Counted from the first letter of the stretch, positions 1 through 9,110 are shown. The stretch: DNA of 9,110 bases from a virus (IMGVR_UViG_2537562017_000014); one strand, 5' to 3'. The notes: generated from the sequence alone by a model not told the origin. Numbers and translations: made by a program.

Positions 1-562
1 TCAACTCGCTGAATTCTTTTCTCATTTGGGAAAGTAACTGCCGACGTACTGATTCAATTTCTGCTGTTTGAGCTCTCAAATATCTTGAGAAATCAAGTAG
101 TTCATCAGCTGTTTTGTTTTGGCTATTTATAAACGTAACAGGTTGCCCTGGCTTAGATATGAGAAAGAATTGATCAATTTTATCAAGTAATGGTGGAATT
201 ATTTGTTTCCATTCAGCCCATTCTTTTTCACGATGAAACTCCAGGCTGTGCTGACATGCTCTGAGTTGCTGTATATCAATCGCCCAGACCTCACTCTCAT
301 CGAGGCAATCTTTCCATTTGCTAATTACATTAATGTCAAATTTTTTGTTCGGTCGATAATCTTCTTTGGCGCGCGCTTCCAGTATAGAGGCAAGGCTACC
401 TGTATATTGCATCAAATTGGTAGATGCTCGGTTTACTAGCTCAGATATTCGATCTAGTTGAGTTGTTCTAATCTCAAGTGCTTTCTTTTTACGTTCATTT
501 CGTAAAGCAAAATATGCAGCAAGGCAGACTGCAGCAACTGTGGCTGCTGGTTGCATATTCAT
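1..562 (-). CDS. Hypothetical protein with N-terminal hydrophobic anchor; partial, 3' end runs off the left edge; AT-rich accessory (cargo) gene downstream of gpD
   Basis: Minus-strand frame is open from the ATG (complement of 560-562) to position 2; I checked every in-frame triplet by hand and found no stop. AGAGGA Shine-Dalgarno lies 8 nt upstream of that ATG. Translation starts MNMQPAATVAAVCLAAYFALRNERKKK, a 16-residue hydrophobic stretch followed by a basic cluster. Absent from the supplied ORF track, apparently because it has no stop inside the window. An alternative in-frame ATG at 584-586 lacks an SD. No family recognised. Confidence 0.6.
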   Translation of the reverse strand, partial: MNMQPAATVAAVCLAAYFALRNERKKKALEIRTTQLDRISELVNRASTNLMQYTGSLASILEARAKEDYRPNKKFDINVISKWKDCLDESEVWAIDIQQLRACQHSLEFHREKEWAEWKQIIPPLLDKIDQFFLISKPGQPVTFINSQNKTADELLDFSRYLRAQTAEIESVRRQLLSQMRKEFSEL

Positions 563-643: not shown

Positions 644-756
644 ACATATTCTAATGTAAGGTACTTCTGATTTTGACACTTGGTAGGCTGTCAGATTGGT
701 TATGATTCTTGCTGTAGGCGCGTTAACAAATGTCAGGGCTAATGCATCTAAGTTGT

Positions 757-1857
757 TTACTCTGTTTCTGCTATCCATTCCGGGATTTTTGCTTCAAGCT
801 CAAGCTGAGTGGTAAAGCCGCTGTTGTCAATGGTGTGCTCGGCTTTTGCAATAATCCAGTCCTGATTGTCAATGTCACTTTTGAAGCCTGTCACCGTGCC
901 ATGCATTTCGGGATAGAGTTCTGCACGTCCACACGCCAGCGTGATGGAGAACGCTGCGGCTCCGCGTTGTAGCTGCTGCCACTTTGCCGCCGCTGCACGT
1001 CTTGCTGCCTGCTCGTTCTGATAAGTCTTGCGTAACACAAACACGTTGCCTTCCGCGCCTTCCATATAGTCGCCTTCCCGGCTGCTGCTTTTCTCCTTTT
1101 TCGGTTTGCGGCGTTTCACGTTGACTTTTTTCTTTTTCCCGTAATTAAGATCAAGCCAGTAGGCGCGTACACCCGTATACGCCTCGCGGTCAGCAATGCG
1201 AAACTGATGGCGATCGCCGCTGCTGCGTGTGATGGCAAACGATGGCAATGGTTTTCCCTGTGCGTTCACGCCACCGCCTGGCATGATGAATAACAGATTA
1301 CCGCTTTTTACCGTGGTGATTGCGCCCAGCATTTCCGCCATGCGCGTAAGGAAGGACATGTCGCTTTCTTCGGTCTGGTCGGCGTGGTCGATTTCGATAT
1401 CCATCAGCATTTCGCTGATTTGCGGTTTCAGGCCGTACCGGTGAGCGATAGCAGATACCACGCGCTCAACGGTCACATCATGCCAGGACACTTCACGTTT
1501 AACGTTAAATTCATCCCGAAAATCTGCGCTTCTGGCTGAAACAGTCAGCCTGTCCGGCGGACCTTCGTGAGCGATTTCATCAACAATGTAAGTGCCTTTT
1601 TCTGTCAGCGGTTCTCCTTTCCAGCCAATGAGAACCGTCAGGCGCGCGCCCCGTGGCGGTAGCTGCAACTGACCATCCGCATCATCCAGCGTGATGGTGA
1701 GCTGGTCCGCCTCAAATCCCCGGTTGTCGGTCAGTGACAGGCTCATCAGGCGCTCGGCCACGCCTGACAGCGTTTTACCCTCCGCGAGAATATCAAAATC
1801 CGGCATTTTCACGGGGTCTGTGCCCTGACTGAGCAATTGCATGGTGGTATCGGTCAT
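757..1857 (-). CDS. P2 gpD-like tail protein (late control gene D family)
   Basis: Translation carries the gpD-type organisation: LMSLSLTDNRGFEADQL, SWHD, a Lys/Arg-rich linker KKKKVNVKRRKPKKEK, EGDY...NVFVLRKTY and WQQLQRG...FSITLACGR. Start chosen at the ATG on the complement of 1855-1857 (MTDTTMQLL) because a GGGAGGG Shine-Dalgarno sits 5 nt upstream. The track's longer ORF to 1989 has no comparable signal. Stop is TAA on the complement of 757-759. Confidence 0.85.
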   Translation of the reverse strand: MTDTTMQLLSQGTDPVKMPDFDILAEGKTLSGVAERLMSLSLTDNRGFEADQLTITLDDADGQLQLPPRGARLTVLIGWKGEPLTEKGTYIVDEIAHEGPPDRLTVSARSADFRDEFNVKREVSWHDVTVERVVSAIAHRYGLKPQISEMLMDIEIDHADQTEESDMSFLTRMAEMLGAITTVKSGNLLFIMPGGGVNAQGKPLPSFAITRSSGDRHQFRIADREAYTGVRAYWLDLNYGKKKKVNVKRRKPKKEKSSSREGDYMEGAEGNVFVLRKTYQNEQAARRAAAAKWQQLQRGAAAFSITLACGRAELYPEMHGTVTGFKSDIDNQDWIIAKAEHTIDNSGFTTQLELEAKIPEWIAETE

Positions 1858-2014
1858 CTGTTCCCTCCCTGTGCGGCATGGTCGCATGTGCGTGCGGAGG
1901 GGGTTACTGCTTTTTGTTGTCGCCGTGGCGGGAGAACGGCGCAGGGGTGAGATTACGCGCGTGGTGGGTGATGATTGTTGCCGAATCATTTAACGGATAC
2001 AAGGGGCTGAAGCT

Positions 2015-3193
2015 ATGAGTGAAACTCGTTTTCATGGTGCCCGTGTTACGGAAAATACCGACCTGGTAACAGCGATTAAGATGTTGATTCCAGGTTATCG
2101 GTATCGTGGCAACGGCGGATGATGCGGAGCGAGCTGTTCCCGCTGAACAAGCCCACACTGCTGACCCGCGTCAATGACGTGCTGGGAAAATGCGGACAAC
2201 GGGACGCTTTATCGTGCGCTTAAGGCCATCGCAGACCAGGTGAGCACAAAGGTGATCGTCGTTCGCGTGGCTGAACACAAAGAAGAAGACGGAAAGACGC
2301 AGGATCAACTGGTTATCGGTGGTTCTGAGGATGACGGCAGCTATACGGGGATGTATGCGCTGCTTGTTGCAGAGCAGGATGAAAGCATCGGATACCGTCC
2401 GCGTATTCTGGCCGCGCCGGAGCTGGACACGGAGGCGGTAACAAAATCCCTGTGCGTGATTGCGGGTAAACTGCGCGCGTTTGTGTATGCCTCATGTCAC
2501 GGCTGTAACACGATGGCTGAGGCGATTACCTACCGCCAGAAATTCAACGAACGTGAGGTGATGCTCTTATGGCCGGACTTCATCGCCTACAACCCGAAAA
2601 GTGGCAAAAACGAAACGTTCCCCGCGCCTGCCTATGCGTGCGGCCTTCGTGCGTACATTGACCATGAGCAGGGCTGGCACAAATCGCTGTCCAACGTTCC
2701 GGTTAAAAATGTGCTGGGGATGTCCAGGCATGTGTTCTGGTCGTTGCAGGCCGAAGACAGTGATGCCAACAGCCTCAACAACAAAGAAATCACGACCATT
2801 ATTCGTCGCAATGGGTTCCGCTTCTGGGGCAACCGCACACCGGAAACGAACGCCTACATCTTTGAGGTGTATACCCGAACCGCACAGGTGCTGGCTGATT
2901 CAATTGCGGAAGCGCAGTTTGAAACCATCGACAGTCCACTGACGCCTGCGAACGTGAAAGATGTTATCAGTGCCATCAGGGCAAAACTGGATTCACTGGT
3001 TACTGCCGGGAAACTGATTGGGGCGTCGTGCTGGTATGACGTGGTGGATAACGGCACCACGAATTTACGTCAGGGGCGCGTGCGTATTCGCTACAAATAT
3101 ACGCCTGTTCCCCCGCTGGAAGACATGGAGCTTTACCAGTCGTTTACTGATGAATTCTTTGGTCCCGCATTTGCGGTGCTGGGAGGTGCCTGA
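2015..3193 (+). pseudogene. P2 FI-like contractile tail sheath; 5' ~180 nt disrupted by three frame changes, reading frame intact from about 2192 to the stop
   Basis: ATG at 2015 with AAGGGG SD 8 nt upstream gives MSETRFHGARVTE, then a stop at 2120-2122. Sheath-like N-terminal motifs continue in other frames: VIGIVATADDAE (frame of 2094-2129), FPLNKPTLLT (from 2137), then GTLYRALKAIADQ in the long ORF 2174-3193. The long ORF has clear sheath motifs (WPDFIAYN, IRRNGFRFWGNRT, YKYTPVPPLED). Stop TGA at 3191-3193 overlaps the FII start. Confidence 0.75.
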
Positions 3194-3705
3194 TGGCTGT
3201 ACCAAAACATCTTCGCTTTTTTACGCTGTTTGTGGATGGTGAAAACGAAGTGGGTAAGGTGACGTCCGTCACTCTGCCTAAGCTGACGCGCAAAACCGAC
3301 AGCTACCGGGGTGGTGGCATGATGGGTGCGGTAAGTATTGATCTCGGTCTGGACGACTCCGCGCTTGATGCGAGCTTTGTCATGGGGGGCGCAGTTCGTG
3401 AGCTGTTCCTTAAGTATGGCGGCACGATTGACGGCACGCTGCTGCGTTTTGCGGGTGAATACTACACCGATGCAGAAAGCGACCTGTATGAAGTCGAAAT
3501 GCGCGGACGTGTGACGGAAATTGATATGGGGGAAGCCAAACAGGGCGAAGCCACATCACACACTTACGCCATTAAAAACACCTACTACAAGCTGAGTGTT
3601 AACGATCGCCCGTTGTGGGAGATTGACCTGCTGAACTTCATTTACCGGAAGGACGGCAAGGACATTGTGCCCGATCGCATCCGTTCCGCGCTTGGGCTTG
3701 GCTGA
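3193..3705 (+). CDS. P2 FII-like tail tube protein
   Basis: 170-aa ORF. ATG overlaps the FI stop (TGATG), suggesting translational coupling; GGGAGG SD 6 nt upstream. Translation MAVPKHLRFFTLFVDGEN...TLPKLTRKTDSYRGGGM matches the remembered P2 tube N-terminus pattern (PKLTRKTxxYRGGGM). Confidence 0.9.
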   Translation: MAVPKHLRFFTLFVDGENEVGKVTSVTLPKLTRKTDSYRGGGMMGAVSIDLGLDDSALDASFVMGGAVRELFLKYGGTIDGTLLRFAGEYYTDAESDLYEVEMRGRVTEIDMGEAKQGEATSHTYAIKNTYYKLSVNDRPLWEIDLLNFIYRKDGKDIVPDRIRSALGLG

Positions 3706-3759
3706 TAAGTAATATGCAGGCGGCGCAGTGCGTCGCCTCTGACTGAAAGGAGTTTCCTG

Positions 3760-4125
3760 ATGAAAGAGACGAAAAACATCGATACCGAAAACACGGTAGT
3801 TACTGACACTGTGAAAGAAACCAGTGAGCGTGGCGTAAAACTTACCCAACCAATTGAGCGAGGCGGCGAAAAAATCACGTATGTGGAGATCACCGGGGCT
3901 ATTGAGCAGGCTGGATCTCTGCGAGATTTGTCGCTGTCTGATGTGCTGAATCTGAAAGCGGAATCCATGTTTACGCTGCTGTCACGCGTGACATCACCGC
4001 GACTGGATGAAGTGACGATCAAAAAAATGGCATCCCGTGACTTTATTCAGTTATGTGTGGTTGCCGTAAATTTTTTGAGCGGTGCGGACTCTGGCGGGAA
4101 GAACGAACAGGCGACGGAAGCCTGA
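3760..4125 (+). CDS. gpE-like tail assembly chaperone (zero-frame product)
   Basis: ATG at 3760 with AAGGAG SD (3747-3752) 7 nt upstream. Sits between tube and tape measure as in P2/lambda G-GT. Contains the slippery heptamer near its 3' end. Confidence 0.8.
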   Translation: MKETKNIDTENTVVTDTVKETSERGVKLTQPIERGGEKITYVEITGAIEQAGSLRDLSLSDVLNLKAESMFTLLSRVTSPRLDEVTIKKMASRDFIQLCVVAVNFLSGADSGGKNEQATEA

Positions 4126-4289
4126 TCACGGTTGTGTGCTTTGAGCACATAGAAGACTTTGTGGCGGATATTGCCGCCATTTTTAACTGGTCGCCCGCCG
4201 AAATCTTCATGATGACGCCCGGCGAAGTGGTTAGCTGGCGTGAGCGGGCGGCACTTCGCAGCGGGAATGCAGACAATGAAGACTCTTGA
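3760..4289 (+). CDS. gpE+E' fusion chaperone produced by programmed -1 frameshift (3760-4077 joined to 4077-4289)
   Basis: Slippery heptamer T TTT TTG at 4071-4077 is positioned X.XXY.YYZ in the E frame (codons AAT TTT TTG). The -1 frame is open from there to TGA at 4287-4289 and encodes FEHIEDFVADIAAIFNWSPAEIFMMTPGEVVSWRERAALRSGNA (track ORF 4053-4289), the conserved E' extension. Confidence 0.65.
4071..4077 (+). other. Programmed -1 ribosomal frameshift slippery site (TTTTTTG) of the E/E' chaperone pair
   Basis: Heptamer read directly from the sequence and in the correct register with the upstream ORF; the -1 frame downstream is open and conserved-looking. Confidence 0.7.
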
Positions 4290-7082
4290 TATCCGGGTCG
4301 CTTTCAGCGCCGTTGACAGGCTGACCCGGCCTGCCGAAAACGCCCGCCGCCTGATGGGGCAGTTTGGTGACTCCATCCAGCGAACGCAGGGGGCGATCAA
4401 AAATCTCGAGCGTCAGGCGCGATCATTTGAGCGCGCCCGTGACGCTGTCAGTAAAGCGGATGCGGGCATCGTGAAAGCACGACGCCAGCTTAACGCCCTT
4501 AATCAGTTACAACGCACGGGTACAGTGCTCAGCGAAAAACAACAAAAGCTGATGCAGCAGTTAAGCACCCGGCTTGAACGCCTGAATGAATCGCGCACAC
4601 GGGAAATTCAGAAAATGCGGGAACTTGGCGGAGAACTGAAACGCCACGGCATTTCCCTGACAGGCAGCGATAACACCATCCAGCAGGCCATCAGACGCAC
4701 CGAACAGTACAACAACCAGCTTGAACGCGAACGGCAGGCGCTTGCGCGTGTAACGCGGGCGCGTGAGCGGTATTCGCGCGCGCAGGAAACCGCGGGAAAA
4801 CTGAAAACAGGTGGTGCGCTGGCAATTGGTGCGGCAGCGGCTGGCGGCTATGCTGCCGGGCGTTTTTTGCAGCCTGCGATCGGGTTCGGCAAAGAGATGT
4901 CCCGCGTTCAGGCACTGACGAGAATCGACAAAAACAGCCCGCAGTTTAAGGCGCTGCGTGAGCAGGCGTTAAAACTTGGCTCTGAAACACAGTTTACTGC
5001 GAGTGATGCCGCCAGTGGGCAGAGCTTTCTGGCAATGGCTGGTTTTACTCCGCAGGCCATTCAGGCCGCATTGCCCGGTGTTCTTAATATGGCGCTGGCA
5101 GGTGGCGTCGAACTCGGCGAGACGGCTGATATAGGCTCCAATATCCTCACACAGTTCAATCTGACAGCCGATCAAATGGACCGGGTTGGCGATACGCTGA
5201 CAGCGGCATTCACCCGGACCAATACTGATTTACGCGCGCTGGGCGAAACCATGAAGTATACCGGTCCGGTTGCCGCAAAACTTGGTATCAGTCTTGAAGA
5301 AGCGACGGCCATGGCCGGGATGCTTGCCAATAATGGTCTTCGCGGAAGCGATGCTGGTACGGCCATGCGCGCAAGTCTGTCCCGCCTAGCATCACCGCCA
5401 AAAGCTGCGGCTGATGCGCTGAAAGAGCTGGGGGTGTCAGTTGCTGACGCCAGAGGCAAAATGCGCCCGATGGAGGATGTGCTGCTTGATCTCTATAAGG
5501 CGACACAAAAATACGGACAGGTGGACCAGGTTTCCTTCTTCAAGGACATCGCCGGAGAAGAGGCGTTCGTTGGTTTGCAGACGCTTGTTGCGGCGGCTGG
5601 TTCAGGAGAGCTGCAAAAACTGACCAGAGAATTGCAGGGGGCAAGGGGAGAGGCCGATCGCGTCGCAAAAGTAATGGCCGATAATCTTGATGGGGACCTG
5701 AAAAATCTCGACAGCGCATGGGAAGGTCTTCGTATTCGCATCAGTGATCTGGTTGACGGTCCGCTGCGTTCTGTCACCAGTGGCTCACGCGGGTGCTTGA
5801 AAAAATCACCTCGCTGGCGCAGGCCCATCCGGTACTGACACGCCAGCTACTGATAGCAGGCGGTGCGTTGCTGGCAATGACTGCAACGATTGGCTCGTTG
5901 TCGCTGGTTATTGGGGTGCTTTACGGAAAGCTGGCCACCCTGCGTCTTGGTTTTGACATTCTTACCCGGTCAATGAATGTCGTCAGGGTGTTGCCTGCGC
6001 TGTGGGGAATGCTGACGGGTTCCGTTTCTTTGCTGGGAGGCGCTATCGGAGCGCTGTTCAGTCCGGTTGGTCTTATCGTGGCTGCGCTTGCCGGAGCTGC
6101 CGTTCTTATCTGGAAATACTGGGATCCCATCAGGGCATTTTTTGCCGGGGTGTTCAGCGGGATTATGGAAAGGCTGACCCCGTTGCGCGAAACCTTTGAA
6201 CGGTTTGGTCCTGTTTTTGACGCAATCGGAAGCGGGATCAGCCAGGTGTTTAACTGGTTTAAATCGCTGTTGTCACCGATGGAGTCCAGCAAGGAAACGC
6301 TGGATAAATGTACCAGTGCTGGCGAGATATTCGGTAACGTTCTTGGTGGTGCGTTACAACTTGTTCTGACACCTGCAAAAATGCTACTGGATACGCTGGC
6401 GTGGATACTTGAAAAACTTGGCGTCCTTCCGGATGAAGCGGAAAGGGCGCGCAAGAAAATCGAAGACGCACAGCGTGCGGCCATTCTTCAGGACAAGGTT
6501 GCCTTACTTCAGGGGGACCTGGCGAAAATCAATCCGCCGAAGCCTGTGGAAAATGGCAATGGCACCGGAGGTGATAAACCCAAAGACAACAAACCGCTCA
6601 CAGACAGCAATACCGGGACGCTACGCAGACTCAGCAAAATTGCTGATAACACAGGTAAGCTGGTTGATGAGACGAAAAAACGCATTGGCCCCGGCGATAT
6701 TGTCTTTAAGAACCTGCCCCGCGCACTTGCTGTTCGTGGGGAGTGGCAGGAGCGGAAGATTGCGCAGGTCAGTAAGCCTGCCCCCGCAATTAATATCACC
6801 CCCGTGGTCCCGGCTCCGCTGCCTCCGGCGCTGGTCCCTGTTGTTGCGGCCAGCTCCCGCCCGGTGGCGGAGGCCATACGATCTCCAGTGGCATCAGTTC
6901 CTGTAACTTCCCGTAACCGGGAGCCTGTTGCCTCCGGATTTGGTGGTGAAATTCATGTTCATCTGCATAACGTTGTTACGCAGAATCCCCGCGAACTGGC
7001 GAAACTGGTCGGTGAAATGGTCAGGGCAGAAATGGAACGGCGCGCTCGTGCCGGGCGTGGCAGTTTTTACGATAAAGATTGA
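4267..7082 (+). pseudogene. gpT-like tail tape measure protein, split into two overlapping ORFs by a frame change near 5757-5800
   Basis: Track ORFs 4240-5838 and 5793-7082 are in different frames and overlap by 45 nt. The first is coiled-coil/Ala-rich and the second has hydrophobic glycine-rich helices, both typical of tape measure proteins. The second frame opens only at 5757 and its apparent start is GTG. First in-frame ATG after the E' overlap is 4267 (alternative 4276). Confidence 0.7.
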
Positions 7083-7094
7083 GGAGTCATGGCC

Positions 7095-7583
7095 ATGATG
7101 ATGATCTACGGCATGTTTGTTTTTGAGCTGCGCACGTTGCCGCATCAGCAGTTACAGCAAAACAAAAGCTGGCGGCATGTGAAAAATGAACGCGTTAACC
7201 GTTCAGCAAGCTGGCAGTATATCGGTGCAGGTGATGATCGCATCGTTCTTTCTGGTGTGCTTTATCCTGAAATTACAGGTGGCGAAGTGTCGCTGTCGCT
7301 GCTGACCACGCAGGCGTATACAGGACGCCCCTGGCCTCTGATTGATAGTGTCGGGCAGATTTACGGCATGTATGTGCTGACTGAAACGAATACGACCCGT
7401 TCCGAGTTTGATCGCTACGGTAAGGCGAAAAAGATAGAATTTTCACTGACCCTTGAACGCTGTGATGAGGATTTGCGGGAGCGCCTGCAATCCTCATCAT
7501 TCAGCGATATGCTGTCCGGCTTCAAAGATAAGGTGACATCATCTCTTAACAGCGCGGCCAGTTCAGTTAAAGGGCTGTTCTGA
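7095..7583 (+). CDS. P2 gpU-like tail protein
   Basis: GAGGAG SD at 7081-7086 is 8 nt before the ATG at 7095 (MMMIYGMFVFEL); the ATG at 7089 is only 2 nt from the SD. Position directly after T. Stop TGA at 7581-7583. Confidence 0.85.
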   Translation: MMMIYGMFVFELRTLPHQQLQQNKSWRHVKNERVNRSASWQYIGAGDDRIVLSGVLYPEITGGEVSLSLLTTQAYTGRPWPLIDSVGQIYGMYVLTETNTTRSEFDRYGKAKKIEFSLTLERCDEDLRERLQSSSFSDMLSGFKDKVTSSLNSAASSVKGLF

Positions 7584-7594
7584 TTTAACACAAA

Positions 7595-7630
7595 AACCGC
7601 TAATGGCCAGATTAGCGGTTATTTTGTTTT
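7595..7630. terminator. Bidirectional rho-independent terminator shared by convergent gpU and invertase genes
   Basis: Perfect 10-bp stem AACCGCTAAT (7595-7604) / ATTAGCGGTT (7611-7620) with 6-nt loop GGCCAG. Followed on the plus strand by ATTTTGTTTT and on the minus strand by TTTTTGTGTT. Confidence 0.6.
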
Positions 7631-8206
7631 CTGACTCTTCTCTATTGTTCCGCTTGATTCTCCTGCGGGGTGGTAACGATAAATCGTCGATGTACCAATG
7701 CCGTAAATTATTGCCAGTTGTTTTCTGTCGTGACCGTTTTTAATCAGCCTTGCTATTTGCTCATGCTGTTCTTTTGTCAGCTTCGGTCGACGTCCGCCTG
7801 TGCGCCCCCGTGCGCGCGCTGCCGCCAGTCCGGCCAGTGTACGTTCAACAATTAATTCACGTTCCATTTCAGCCAGGGCACCCATCACGTGGAAGAAAAA
7901 ACGCCCCATTGGAGAAGATGTATCTATGCTGTCGGTCAGACTGCGAAAATTAATCCCTCGCTCCCGTAGTTCCCCGACGAGAGAAATCAGATGTTTCATG
8001 CTTCGCCCGAGGCGATCCAGTTTCCAGACAACCAGCGTGTCACCTTTTTGAAGACGCTTTAAAGCGCGTTTTAATCCCGGTCGGTCTGTCTTTGTCCCGC
8101 TTAATTTATCTTCAAATATTTGTTCACATCCTGCACAAACAAGAGCGTTTCGTTGCAGGTCTGTATTCTGGTCATTTGTTGATACCCTTACATAGCCAAT
8201 CAGCAC
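7619..8206 (-). CDS. Serine DNA invertase (Gin/Pin/Hin/Cin family resolvase-invertase)
   Basis: Translation LIGYVRVSTNDQNTDLQRNAL...DTLVVWKLDRLGRSMKHLI...FFFHVMGALAEMERELI has the catalytic Ser motif (VRVSTNDQ) and a C-terminal HTH (GTSTIYRY), as in Gin/Pin. The track start at 8224 is a TTG; I prefer the GTG on the complement of 8204-8206, with GGGAGA SD 6 nt upstream, which gives the family's usual MLIGYVRVS N-terminus. Confidence 0.9.
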   Translation of the reverse strand: MLIGYVRVSTNDQNTDLQRNALVCAGCEQIFEDKLSGTKTDRPGLKRALKRLQKGDTLVVWKLDRLGRSMKHLISLVGELRERGINFRSLTDSIDTSSPMGRFFFHVMGALAEMERELIVERTLAGLAAARARGRTGGRRPKLTKEQHEQIARLIKNGHDRKQLAIIYGIGTSTIYRYHPAGESSGTIEKSQKTK

Positions 8207-8260
8207 GCTGAATCTCCCGTCCAAAAGCGTAAATCATGCCATGCAGGTCAGAAACAGCCA

Positions 8261-8286
8261 TTATCTAAAACCTCGGTTTACAAGAA
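8261..8286. other. Invertase crossover site (gix/pix/hix-like, 26 bp)
   Basis: TTATCTAAAACCTCGGTTTACAAGAA; differs at two positions from the Mu gixL sequence as I remember it (TTATCCAAAACCTCGGTTTACAGGAA). Lies 55 bp upstream of the invertase start and at the 5' end of the fibre cassette reading frame. Confidence 0.8.
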
Positions 8287-9110
8287 ACGGTAAATCAGGC
8301 TTCTGGCGCATTACAGAAAAACCAGAACGGCGCAGATATTCCCGATAAAAAACTATTCCTGCGTAATATCGGCACAACAAATTCAACAACCATGTCTTTT
8401 AGTGGTGGTGCTGGATGGTTCAAACTGGCAACTGTAACAATGCCACAAGCCAGTTCCGTGGTTTACATAAGTCTGATTGGTGGTGCTGGATATAATGTTA
8501 ATCCCCATACGGCAATAATAAAATTATTACCGATACTGGCTGTGGAACTATTCATCTTGCAGGTTGCGTTATTGAGGTTATGGGTAATAAAGGTGCCATG
8601 ACCATCCGTGTAACCACCCCGAGCACTTCCAGCGGTGGCGGAACTACTAATGCACAATTTACTTATATAAACCACGGTGGAGATTATGCGCCAGGCTGGC
8701 GGCGTGACTACAGTACCAAAAATCAGCAGCCTGCATTTGCTTTAGGGCAGACAGGAAGCACTGTTGGAAATGACAAAGCTGTTGGATGGAACTCAAATAG
8801 CGGCGTTTATAATGCGACTATTAGTGGAGCGTCAACATTGATTCTTCACTTTAATATGAATGCGGGGAGTTGCCCGGCGGTTCAGTTCCGTGTGAATTAT
8901 AAGAACGGCGGTATTTATTATCGTTCAGCGCGAGATGGTTATGGATTTGAGGCTGACTGGTCAGAGTTTTATACCACAACACGCAAGCCATCAGCAGGAG
9001 ATGTTGGTGCATATACCAAAGCCGAATCAGATTCTCGCTATGTACGAGATATTCGCCTGGGCACACGTGTTGTTCAGACTATGCAAAAAGGCGTGATGTA
9101 TGAGAAATCA
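8269..9110 (+). CDS. Alternative tail-fibre C-terminal variable cassette (promoterless; partial, continues past right edge); frame change near 8500
   Basis: The frame opens at 8269 inside the crossover site and has no plausible start or SD, as expected for a cassette expressed only after inversion fuses it to a constant fibre N-terminus. Translation NLGLQETVNQ...GADIPDKKLFLRNIG...SGGAGWFKLATVTMPQASSVVYISLIGGAGYNVN, then in another frame from 8502: PYGNNKIITDTG...GWRRDYSTKNQQ...AYTKAESDSRYV, which is fibre-like. A 14-bp codon-aligned direct repeat (8403-8416, 8478-8491) encodes GGAGW/GGAGY. Confidence 0.6.

What the first reader, a model, noticed from the sequence alone, without database searches (positions are those of the whole stretch)
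7619..9110. Invertible tail-fibre host-range switch: invertase, gix-like site and silent fibre cassette
An invertase gene, a 26-bp crossover site 55 bp upstream of it, and a promoterless fibre reading frame that begins inside the site and reads away from the invertase together match the gin-proximal end of the Mu G segment (the S'v side). The partner site, the second variable cassette and the constant fibre gene should lie just beyond the right edge. This is a known class of system, but its pairing with a P2-type tail module and the state of the cassette are worth documenting.
Basis: partly seen in the sequence, partly recalled or inferred. Interest (0 to 1): 0.55.

Follow-up and report, generated by a model that had tools for sequence, protein, structure and literature searches.

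The report
Known invertible phage tail-fibre switch
This is the invertase-side end of a well-known Gin/PinB-type DNA-flipping switch that lets a P2-family (P88-like) E. coli prophage alternate between two tail-fibre tips; it is ordinary, apart from a broken hybrid fibre cassette that may be an error in a draft assembly.

Summary
The window holds an intact 195-aa serine invertase (7619-8206, minus strand). A single 26-bp crossover site lies 54 bp upstream of it (8261-8286). A fibre reading frame with no start codon and no promoter-like site opens just after a TAA inside that site.

The site is bixR of Shigella boydii PinB, and the D108 gin-proximal repeat, with one synonymous change. The first 120 invertase residues match D108 Gin at 118 of 120.

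The window is a complete 9110-bp draft contig (APWY01000074.1), so the partner site cannot be seen here. All 13 related loci examined carry an inverted partner site about 3 kb to the right, followed by tfa, tfa' and the full fibre gene. L013 and L015 carry a 100%-identical 2927-bp segment in opposite orientations, so inversion does occur in this lineage.

The element is a P88-like (Xuanwuvirus) prophage. The exact invertase occurs on at least 1000 contigs, and inversion in P2-like E. coli prophages has been shown experimentally.

One oddity remains. The silent cassette is an out-of-frame A-type/B-type hybrid (junction 8506/8507) found nowhere else. The contig also has private 1-2 nt deletions in the sheath and tape-measure genes, so misassembly is at least as likely as biology.

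Verdict: already known, low interest.

The parts
7595..7620 (.). Bidirectional intrinsic terminator hairpin between the convergent gpU and invertase genes
   Evidence: The terminator scan finds a 10-bp stem with T-runs on both strands. It is also inverted repeat I7.
7619..8206 (-). Din-family (Gin/PinB-type) serine DNA invertase, 195 aa, GTG start
   Evidence: Pfam Resolvase and HTH_7. E 1e-100 to Mu Gin structures. 118 of 120 residues identical to D108 Gin in the catalytic domain, about 60% in the DNA-binding domain. S9 and M114 are present, as are the residues conserved in Fis/enhancer-dependent invertases: K46, R47, K50, Q150, R153, L154. The exact protein occurs on at least 1000 contigs.
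8053..8113 (-). Candidate recombinational enhancer (Fis sites) inside the invertase 5' coding region; inferred by homology
   Evidence: Fis-type 15-mers lie at gene nt 94-108 and 140-154, at the same positions in D108 gin; the first is identical and the second differs at 2 bases. Gene nt 1-330 are 96-100% identical to D108 gin. Three Fis sites lie within the Mu gin coding region according to PMC3378877. Binding was not tested.
8207..8260 (-). 54-bp spacer between crossover site and invertase start (presumed invertase promoter and leader)
   Evidence: Nearly invariant in D108, P88 and SCU-111. No consensus promoter was called by the strict scan, so the promoter role is inferred.
8261..8286 (+). 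26-bp crossover site (bixR/gixR type), central dinucleotide TC at 8273-8274; outer half 8261-8272, inner half 8275-8286
   Evidence: Single occurrence, none expected by chance. The reverse complement, TTCTTGTAAACC GA GGTTTTAGATAA, is bixR with one C>T (Table 3 of PMC3241671). The same variant is present in L009 and L017. CAG>CAA is synonymous in the fibre frame.
8269..8601 (+). Fibre cassette frame as it would be fused to the constant fibre gene after inversion: 110 codons, then TGA
   Evidence: Translation. Codons 1-80 are fibre sequence; codons 81-110 are an out-of-frame reading of the B-type part.
8287..8342 (+). Part of the inverted repeat shared by both cassettes (conserved start of the variable fibre part)
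   Evidence: The 93-nt inverted repeat between the two segment ends in SCU-111 and the alignment.
8343..8506 (+). A-type cassette patch (GGAGWFKLATVTMPQASS... type)
   Evidence: Identical to the fibre-proximal cassette of SCU-111 and the invertase-proximal cassette of L017.
8507..9110 (+). B-type (Mu S'-like) cassette, open in a different frame from 8502 to the contig end; the last 81 nt lie in the C-terminal inverted repeat shared by the two cassettes
   Evidence: 100% identical to the opposite strand of L017's fibre-proximal cassette and 99.4% to SCU-111's silent cassette. Pfam gp37_C at 1.6e-8. Positions 9030-9110 match both arms of the 199-nt repeat.

Best explanation
The region is the invertase-proximal end of a Din-family (Gin/PinB-type) invertible tail-fibre segment in a P88-like (Xuanwuvirus, P2-family) prophage of E. 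coli.

How it works:
- The invertase binds as dimers to two inverted 26-bp sites about 3 kb apart. Together with Fis bound to an enhancer inside the 5' end of its own gene, it cuts both sites at the central 2-bp core, rotates half of the complex and religates. This flips the segment.
- The constant part of the fibre gene (P2 H type) lies outside the segment and reads through the distal site. Each flip therefore fuses it in frame, at the Leu codon CTC that contains the core, to one of two alternative C-terminal receptor-binding cassettes, and brings the matching assembly chaperone (tfa) gene downstream.
- The cassette next to the invertase is silent. It has no promoter-like site and no start codon, and the invertase-side half of the site supplies an in-frame TAA.

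What is shown and what is inferred: the identity of the invertase, the site, the frame arrangement and natural inversion in relatives are shown. Fis/enhancer dependence, the promoter and the host-range effect are inferred from the Mu, Hin and PinB systems.

In this contig the silent cassette is an out-of-frame hybrid (A-type to 8506, B-type after). As written, it could only yield a truncated fibre. This state is more likely an error of the draft assembly than real.
For: Invertase:
- Family and catalytic residues.
- Residues conserved in Fis-dependent invertases are present.

Site:
- Unique in the window and equal to D108 gixR / S. boydii bixR with one synonymous change.
- The frame opens after a TAA inside the site, with no + strand promoter-like site.

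Architecture in relatives:
- SCU-111, P88, ten chromosomal loci and the sister draft L017 all have inv / site / cassette(+) tfa(+) tfa(-) cassette(-) / site / H, with a segment of 2953-3097 bp.

Inversion in nature:
- L013 versus L015: a 2927-bp segment, 100% identical, in opposite orientation, with collinear flanks.
- L011 versus L014: 99.7% identical, flipped. L006 is flipped relative to P88, L008 and L010.
- Inner half-site variants travel with the segment, which places the crossover at the core.

Literature:
- Both orientations coexist in P2-like prophages of EPEC, by sequencing and PCR (PMC4272514).
- Fis sites lie in the gin coding region (PMC3378877).
Against: - The partner site, second cassette and constant fibre gene of this genome are not in the window. 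The contig ends at 9110, so an intact switch in this strain is inferred from relatives only.
- The cassette as sequenced is out of frame.
- The sheath and tape-measure genes carry frameshifts. If these are real, the prophage is defective and the switch has no phage-level function here.
- The enhancer is supported only by homology. The two clearest Fis-like 15-mers are 46 bp apart, not the 48 bp I recall for Hin (from memory, not checked).
Confidence: 0.9

Rival explanations
1. The locus is an ordinary intact P88-type switch. The hybrid cassette junction (8506/8507), its 1-nt loss and the small deletions in the sheath and tape-measure genes are errors of a 2013 draft assembly. A likely cause is a culture containing both orientations plus repeat-induced mis-threading through the 82-93-nt repeat shared by the cassettes.
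For: - The window is a whole 9110-bp draft contig that ends inside a repeat.
- The junction lies only 605 nt from the contig end and has at most 1 nt of shared sequence.
- The junction is absent from 5426 finished E. coli genomes, the phage collection and viral, genome and metagenome contigs, even with a tolerant pattern.
- Every small indel in the sheath and tape-measure genes relative to relatives is a deletion. None of about 1370 finished genomes shares the sheath ones and none of 907 shares the tape-measure one.
- The left boundary of the A-type patch falls in the repeat shared by both cassettes, where assemblers mis-thread.
- Both orientations are known to coexist in clonal cultures.
- Adding back the single base makes the hybrid read in frame.
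Against: - No shared k-mer explains a switch back to B-type at 8506.
- The truncated 339-aa sheath product is identical in two other drafts with different prophage contexts, which could mean the sheath lesions are real alleles.
- No reads were available.
Confidence: 0.55
2. The hybrid is real. A patch of the A-type cassette was copied into the invertase-proximal B-type cassette by template switching or illegitimate recombination between the inverted cassettes. It entered in the shared repeat and exited without homology. This left a dead (or, with one base restored, chimeric) cassette in a decaying prophage whose sheath and tape-measure genes are also frameshifted.
For: - The inner half-site carries the B-linked variant (CAAGAA, as in L009 and L017) while 8343-8506 is A-type and 8507 onward is B-type. 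That B/A/B pattern is what patch conversion predicts.
- Tail-fibre cassettes are known to be mosaic.
- The sheath lesions are shared with two other drafts.
Against: - The junction was found in no other sequence.
- The exit point has no microhomology.
- The junction cuts inside the A-type domain rather than at a module boundary.
- The contig's quality is doubtful.
Confidence: 0.35
3. The hybrid arose by invertase action at a cryptic third site inside the cassettes, a shufflon-like multi-site system as in one EPEC P2-like prophage.
For: A three-site shufflon exists in a P2-like prophage of EPEC (PMC4272514). The window's join equals an inversion joint of L017 coordinates 16334(+) and 18911(-).
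Against: - A half-site matrix scores the two real sites at 30-32. The best 26-mers at the two junction points score -9.4 and -13.3, and nothing else in the segment exceeds 1.0.
- The inner half-site marker does not fit a simple internal inversion.
Confidence: 0.03
4. The fibre-like frame is a conventional gene with its own start, and the invertase is unrelated to it. Alternatively, the invertase flips the whole sheath-to-gpU block, which is inverted relative to the canonical P2 gene order.
For: P88's record annotates a 744-bp 'tail fiber protein' CDS at this position. The sheath-to-gpU block is divergent from gpD.
Against: - RefSeq marks the equivalent as a partial gene lacking its N-terminus.
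- The frame is closed by a TAA inside the site and has no start with a ribosome-binding site.
- The block orientation is the same in P88 and all other loci with this architecture.
- No second site exists near gpD or the sheath gene.
Confidence: 0.02

Closest known systems
PinB / invertible B segment of Shigella boydii (bixL, bixR)
   Same: The invertase-proximal site of the relatives is bixR exactly, and the window's site is bixR with one change. P88's fibre-proximal site is bixL exactly. Both have the GA/TC core and a segment of about 3 kb.
   Different: The window has C>T in the inner half-site.
Gin / G segment of phages Mu and D108
   Same: The catalytic domain is 118/120 identical. Gene nt 1-330, the 54-bp spacer and the site are 96-100% identical. 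The order is the same: invertase, site, S'-type cassette, tfa, tfa, cassette, site, constant fibre. The B-type cassette is about 89% identical to D108 S'.
   Different: The DNA-binding domain is only about 60% identical and has a Hin-like recognition helix. The host element is a P2-family phage, not a transposable Mu-type phage. There is no com/mom downstream; the invertase instead converges on gpU.
Escherichia phage P88 and other Xuanwuvirus (Peduoviridae) prophages
   Same: Same gene order from gpD to the baseplate genes, including invertase, cassettes and sites, at 94-95% nucleotide identity. SCU-111 and metagenome contig L003 are 98-99.5% identical.
   Different: The window has the hybrid out-of-frame cassette and small deletions in the sheath and tape-measure genes. 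The P88 papers read here do not discuss the inversion.
Invertible fibre loci in P2-like prophages of EPEC E2348/69 (Goldberg et al. 2014, PMC4272514)
   Same: A P2-like prophage with an invertase plus inverted repeats that switch the fibre C-terminus. Coexistence of both orientations was shown by sequencing and PCR.
   Different: Sequence relationship to this locus was not tested. One EPEC locus has three repeats (a shufflon), whereas two sites are seen in relatives here.
Hin/H segment (Salmonella), Cin/C segment (P1), Pin/P segment (e14)
   Same: Same Din family: 26-bp sites with a 2-bp core, and conserved Fis/enhancer-contact residues. The recognition helix here is Hin-like.
   Different: The hix, cix and pix cores are AA rather than GA. 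Hin flips a promoter, not fibre cassettes.

Membership tests
Din-family DNA invertase system (Gin/Hin/Cin/Pin/PinB) | Small serine recombinase: N-terminal resolvase catalytic domain with the nucleophilic Ser9, and a C-terminal HTH DNA-binding domain | tested here: met
   Pfam Resolvase 1.3e-50 and HTH_7 9e-14. E 1e-100 to Gin structures. S9 is present in VRVSTND.
Din-family DNA invertase system (Gin/Hin/Cin/Pin/PinB) | [quoted passage not shown] | tested here: met
   Site at 8261-8286. Its reverse complement is TTCTTGTAAACC GA GGTTTTAGATAA, which is bixR with one change. None expected by chance.
Din-family DNA invertase system (Gin/Hin/Cin/Pin/PinB) | Second site in inverted orientation with the same core dinucleotide, bounding the invertible segment | not testable with these tools
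   The window is an entire contig that ends inside the segment. In all 13 related loci examined an inverted partner with a GA/TC core bounds a 2953-3097 bp segment.
Din-family DNA invertase system (Gin/Hin/Cin/Pin/PinB) | Fis-bound recombinational enhancer in cis, within the 5' part of the invertase gene, and invertase residues that contact Fis/enhancer | tested here: inconclusive
   Gene nt 1-330 are 96-100% identical to D108 gin, and Fis-type 15-mers lie at nt 94-108 and 140-154 in both. K46, R47, K50, Q150, R153 and L154 are conserved. Fis sites in the gin coding region per PMC3378877. The exact published enhancer coordinates could not be retrieved and no binding data exist.
Din-family DNA invertase system (Gin/Hin/Cin/Pin/PinB) | Both orientations of the segment actually occur | tested here: met
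   Shown for the lineage, not for this strain. L013/L015 are 100% identical over 2927 bp but flipped. L011/L014 are 99.7% identical and flipped. L006 is flipped relative to P88, L008 and L010.
Mu-G-type fibre switch (constant fibre part plus alternative C-terminal cassettes with cognate tfa genes) | The cassette frame continues through the site so that inversion gives an in-frame fusion; the silent copy lacks a start and promoter | tested here: met
   The window reads TAA then NLGLQETVNQ... The fibre-proximal copies read ...YLGLQETVNQ... in frame with H. No + strand promoter-like site.
Mu-G-type fibre switch (constant fibre part plus alternative C-terminal cassettes with cognate tfa genes) | An intact alternative cassette able to encode a functional fibre tip | tested here: not met
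   As sequenced, the frame breaks at 8506/8507 and stops at 8599-8601 after 110 codons. This may be an assembly error.
Xuanwuvirus (P88-like Peduoviridae) | Collinear P88 gene order and high nucleotide identity across the tail module | tested here: met
   95.3% identity over window 747-8342 to P88, with the same order gpD(-), sheath-to-gpU(+), invertase(-), cassette(+).

The most novel reading that the evidence does not exclude
The hybrid A/B cassette is real. It would record a non-site-specific exchange between the two inverted fibre cassettes of an invertible segment: template switching that enters through the shared repeat. With the single lost base restored, the result is an in-frame chimeric fibre tip. 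That would show that the inverted-repeat geometry of these switches itself drives cassette shuffling and the creation of new receptor-binding domains.
Probability: 0.3. Interest if true: 0.3.

Novelty: already known. Interest (0 to 1): 0.12.

Why it matters
It matters little beyond annotation. Gin/PinB-type invertible fibre segments have been described since the 1980s-90s. The sites here are the published bix/gix sites, the host phage genus (P88-like) is described and annotated with a DNA invertase, and inversion in P2-like E. coli prophages has been shown experimentally.

The practical points are these:
- Such loci break short-read assemblies exactly at their repeats. Both this contig and metagenome contig L003 end there.
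- They can yield chimeric or frameshifted cassette sequences in draft genomes, and these should not be read as biology without read support.

If the hybrid were real, it would be a small illustration of how fibre cassettes become mosaic.

Tried and rejected
- Searched for the exact hybrid junction and for a tolerant A-end/gap/B-start pattern in finished E. coli genomes, the phage collection and viral, genome and metagenome contigs. There were no hits.
- Tested a cryptic third gix-like site at the junction as the origin of the hybrid. Rejected, with matrix scores of -9 and -13 against about +30 for real sites.
- Considered that the divergent sheath-to-gpU block was a large invertase-mediated inversion. 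Rejected, because it is the fixed arrangement in P88 and every related locus, and no site lies near gpD or the sheath gene.
- Considered that the G>A in the site was a private, inactivating mutation. Rejected: it also occurs in L009 and L017, is synonymous, and gives the TTCTTG found in hixL.
- Tried to retrieve the published Gin enhancer coordinates (Koch et al. 1991). The paper is not held. The Fis-site spacing test is therefore inconclusive.
- Looked up the tape-measure N-terminal fragment to find more copies of the contig. It is not on record.
- Searched for a description of the inversion in the P88 papers. None was found.
- Ran Pfam on the A-type patch, the left-end partial ORF and the 35-aa sheath stub. 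No families were found.

Full report
**What is in the sequence**

The minus strand of 7619-8206 encodes a 195-aa protein starting at a GTG (MLIGYVRVSTNDQ...). It has a resolvase catalytic domain (1.3e-50) and an HTH_7 domain (9e-14). Its best solved relative is the Mu Gin invertase, at E 1e-100.

A 26-bp sequence, TTATCTAAAACC-TC-GGTTTACAAGAA, lies 54 bp upstream at 8261-8286. It is the only match in the window to the corresponding D108/P88 site at up to 3 mismatches, and none of 200 shuffles gave a match.

On the + strand a TAA at 8266-8268, inside the site, closes the frame. From 8269 the frame reads NLGLQETVNQASGALQKNQNGADIP..., a tail-fibre sequence running away from the invertase. No sigma-70-like site lies on that strand, and the first in-frame ATG has no ribosome-binding site. 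A bidirectional terminator at 7595-7620 separates the invertase from the convergent gpU gene.

**What the element is**

The window is a P2-family tail module:
- gpD, 757-1857, minus strand
- sheath gene
- tube gene, 3193-3705
- E/E'
- tape-measure gene
- gpU, 7089-7583

It is 98-99.6% identical to a prophage of E. coli SCU-111, 99.5% to a metagenome contig and 95% to the isolated phage P88, genus Xuanwuvirus, family Peduoviridae. P88 has the same order: gpD(-), sheath-to-gpU(+), invertase(-), fibre fragment(+), tfa(+), tfa(-), full fibre(-), then baseplate genes(-). Pairing of the invertase with a P2-type tail is therefore a feature of the genus. The exact invertase protein is recorded on at least 1000 contigs from Enterobacteriaceae.

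**Comparison with the classical systems**

- Invertase residues 1-120 match D108 Gin at 118 of 120, while residues 121-181 are only about 60% identical.
- The recognition helix (GIGTSTIYRY) resembles Hin (GIGVSTLYRY) rather than Gin (DVALSTLYKK).
- Nucleotides 1-330 of the gene, the 54-bp spacer and the site are 96-100% identical to D108.
- Read on the other strand, the site is TTCTTGTAAACC GA GGTTTTAGATAA. The relatives carry TTCCTGTAAACC GA GGTTTTAGATAA, which is exactly bixR of the Shigella boydii PinB system. P88's fibre-proximal site is exactly bixL.
- The window's single C>T also occurs in L009 and L017, is synonymous (CAG>CAA) and gives the TTCTTG of hixL.

**Enhancer**

Three Fis sites lie in the Mu gin coding region according to PMC3378877. 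The window shares that stretch almost base for base with D108 gin. Fis-type 15-mers occur at gene nt 94-108 and 140-154 (window 8099-8113 and 8053-8067) in both. The residues that PMC3798978 reports as conserved only in Fis/enhancer-dependent invertases are all present: K46, R47, K50, Q150, R153 and L154 in this protein's numbering. M114 is also present. This amounts to homology, not a demonstration of binding.

**The right-hand side**

The window is the entire contig APWY01000074.1 (9110 bp) of draft assembly GCA_000358895.1. The right edge is an assembly break, 81 nt into a 199-nt inverted repeat formed by the conserved C-terminal ends of the two cassettes. The partner site of this strain cannot be seen.

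All 13 related loci examined have an inverted partner site with the same GA/TC core, giving a segment of 2953-3097 bp, followed by the constant fibre gene. These loci are SCU-111, P88, ten chromosomal loci carrying the identical invertase, and the sister draft L017.

Inversion has really happened in this lineage:
- L013 and L015 carry a 2927-bp segment that is 100% identical but in opposite orientations, between collinear flanks.
- L011 and L014 do the same at 99.7% identity.
- L006 is flipped relative to P88, L008 and L010.
- Inner half-site variants move with the segment, which places the crossover at the core.

Coexistence of both orientations in clonal cultures has been shown by sequencing and PCR for P2-like prophages of EPEC (PMC4272514).

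**State of the cassette**

The cassette is a hybrid:
- 8261-8342 is the repeat shared by both cassettes.
- 8343-8506 is identical to the A-type cassette, which is fibre-proximal in SCU-111 and invertase-proximal in L017.
- 8507-9110 is 100% identical to the B-type cassette (Mu S'-like, gp37_C domain), which lies on the opposite strand in L017.

The join has at most 1 nt of shared sequence and one base fewer than the A-type (AACTCCCC to AATCCCC). This puts the two parts out of frame. The fused product would stop at 8599-8601 after 110 codons, and the B-type part is open in another frame from 8502. Restoring that base gives an in-frame chimera...GYNVNSP/YGNNKIITD....

The inner half-site carries the variant that L009 and L017 link to the B-type, so the order reads B marker, A patch, B.

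The junction was not found in 5426 finished E. coli genomes, the phage collection or the viral, genome and metagenome contig collections, even with a tolerant pattern. There is no gix-like sequence at either junction point.

**Real or artefact?**

The contig has other private lesions. There are five deletions of 1-2 nt within 125 nt of the sheath gene's 5' end (2080-2204), which split it into 35-aa and 339-aa ORFs. There is also a 1-nt deletion at 5778 that splits the tape-measure gene. None of about 1370 finished genomes with that sheath region shares the deletions (best identity 97.8%), and none of 907 shares the tape-measure one. The identical truncated sheath product does recur in two other drafts.

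The junction sits 605 nt from a contig end, and its left boundary falls in a repeat where assemblers mis-thread. Mixed orientations are expected in cultures. I therefore rate an assembly or sequencing artefact at about 0.55 and a real patch conversion at about 0.35. Only the reads or PCR can decide.

**Verdict**

The hybrid cassette is the only unusual feature and is of doubtful reality. Interest is low.

Noticed in passing
window 8343-8601 (junction 8506/8507): The silent fibre cassette is an out-of-frame hybrid of two cassette types (A-type patch, then B-type) with at most 1 nt of shared sequence at the join. Adding back one base makes it in frame. It was found in no other sequence searched.
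   Followed up: yes
window 2015-2210 and 5778: Five deletions of 1-2 nt within 125 nt split the sheath gene into 35-aa and 339-aa ORFs, and a 1-nt deletion splits the tape-measure gene. None occurs in finished E. coli genomes, but the same 339-aa sheath fragment is encoded in two other draft assemblies (L016, L017). Either draft-specific errors or a defective prophage lineage.
   Followed up: partly
window 1 and 9110 (whole window = contig APWY01000074.1): The window is a complete draft contig. Its right end falls 81 nt into the 199-nt inverted repeat formed by the conserved C-terminal ends of the two cassettes. Metagenome contig L003 likewise ends inside the crossover site. Invertible segments break short-read assemblies.
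   Followed up: yes
window 757-7583; L002 (P88) 1382-8215: The sheath-tube-E-T-U block is transcribed divergently from gpD/ogr, that is, inverted relative to the canonical P2 order (FI FII E T U D in one direction, from my knowledge of P2). It is the fixed arrangement in P88 and every related locus with this architecture.
   Followed up: partly
window 7619-8206 (minus strand): The invertase is a mosaic. Residues 1-120 are nearly identical to Mu/D108 Gin, with nucleotide identity dropping sharply after about gene nt 350. The HTH recognition helix is Hin-like.
   Followed up: partly
L016 15411-15533 versus window about 7624: A sister prophage is 99.3% identical to the window up to the gpU/invertase terminator. 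It then lacks the invertase and invertible segment, going straight to a tfa and a fibre gene. The switch therefore behaves as a present/absent module bounded by the terminator.
   Followed up: no
L011/L013 versus L014/L015 sites; L001, L007, L017 sites: Single-base variants in the inner half-sites (ACTGGAA, GCAGGAA, ACAAGAA) travel with their cassette when the segment is flipped. They act as natural markers that exchange occurs at the central dinucleotide.
   Followed up: yes
window 1-562 (minus strand): Partial ORF (187 aa here, 217 aa in L003) between ogr and gpD with no Pfam match; function unknown.
   Followed up: partly
window 8456-8472 and 8661-8677: A 17-nt inverted repeat (16 of 17 complementary) containing a GGTTTA motif, one arm in the A-type patch and one in the B-type part. 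It scores near background as a crossover site and is probably chance.
   Followed up: partly
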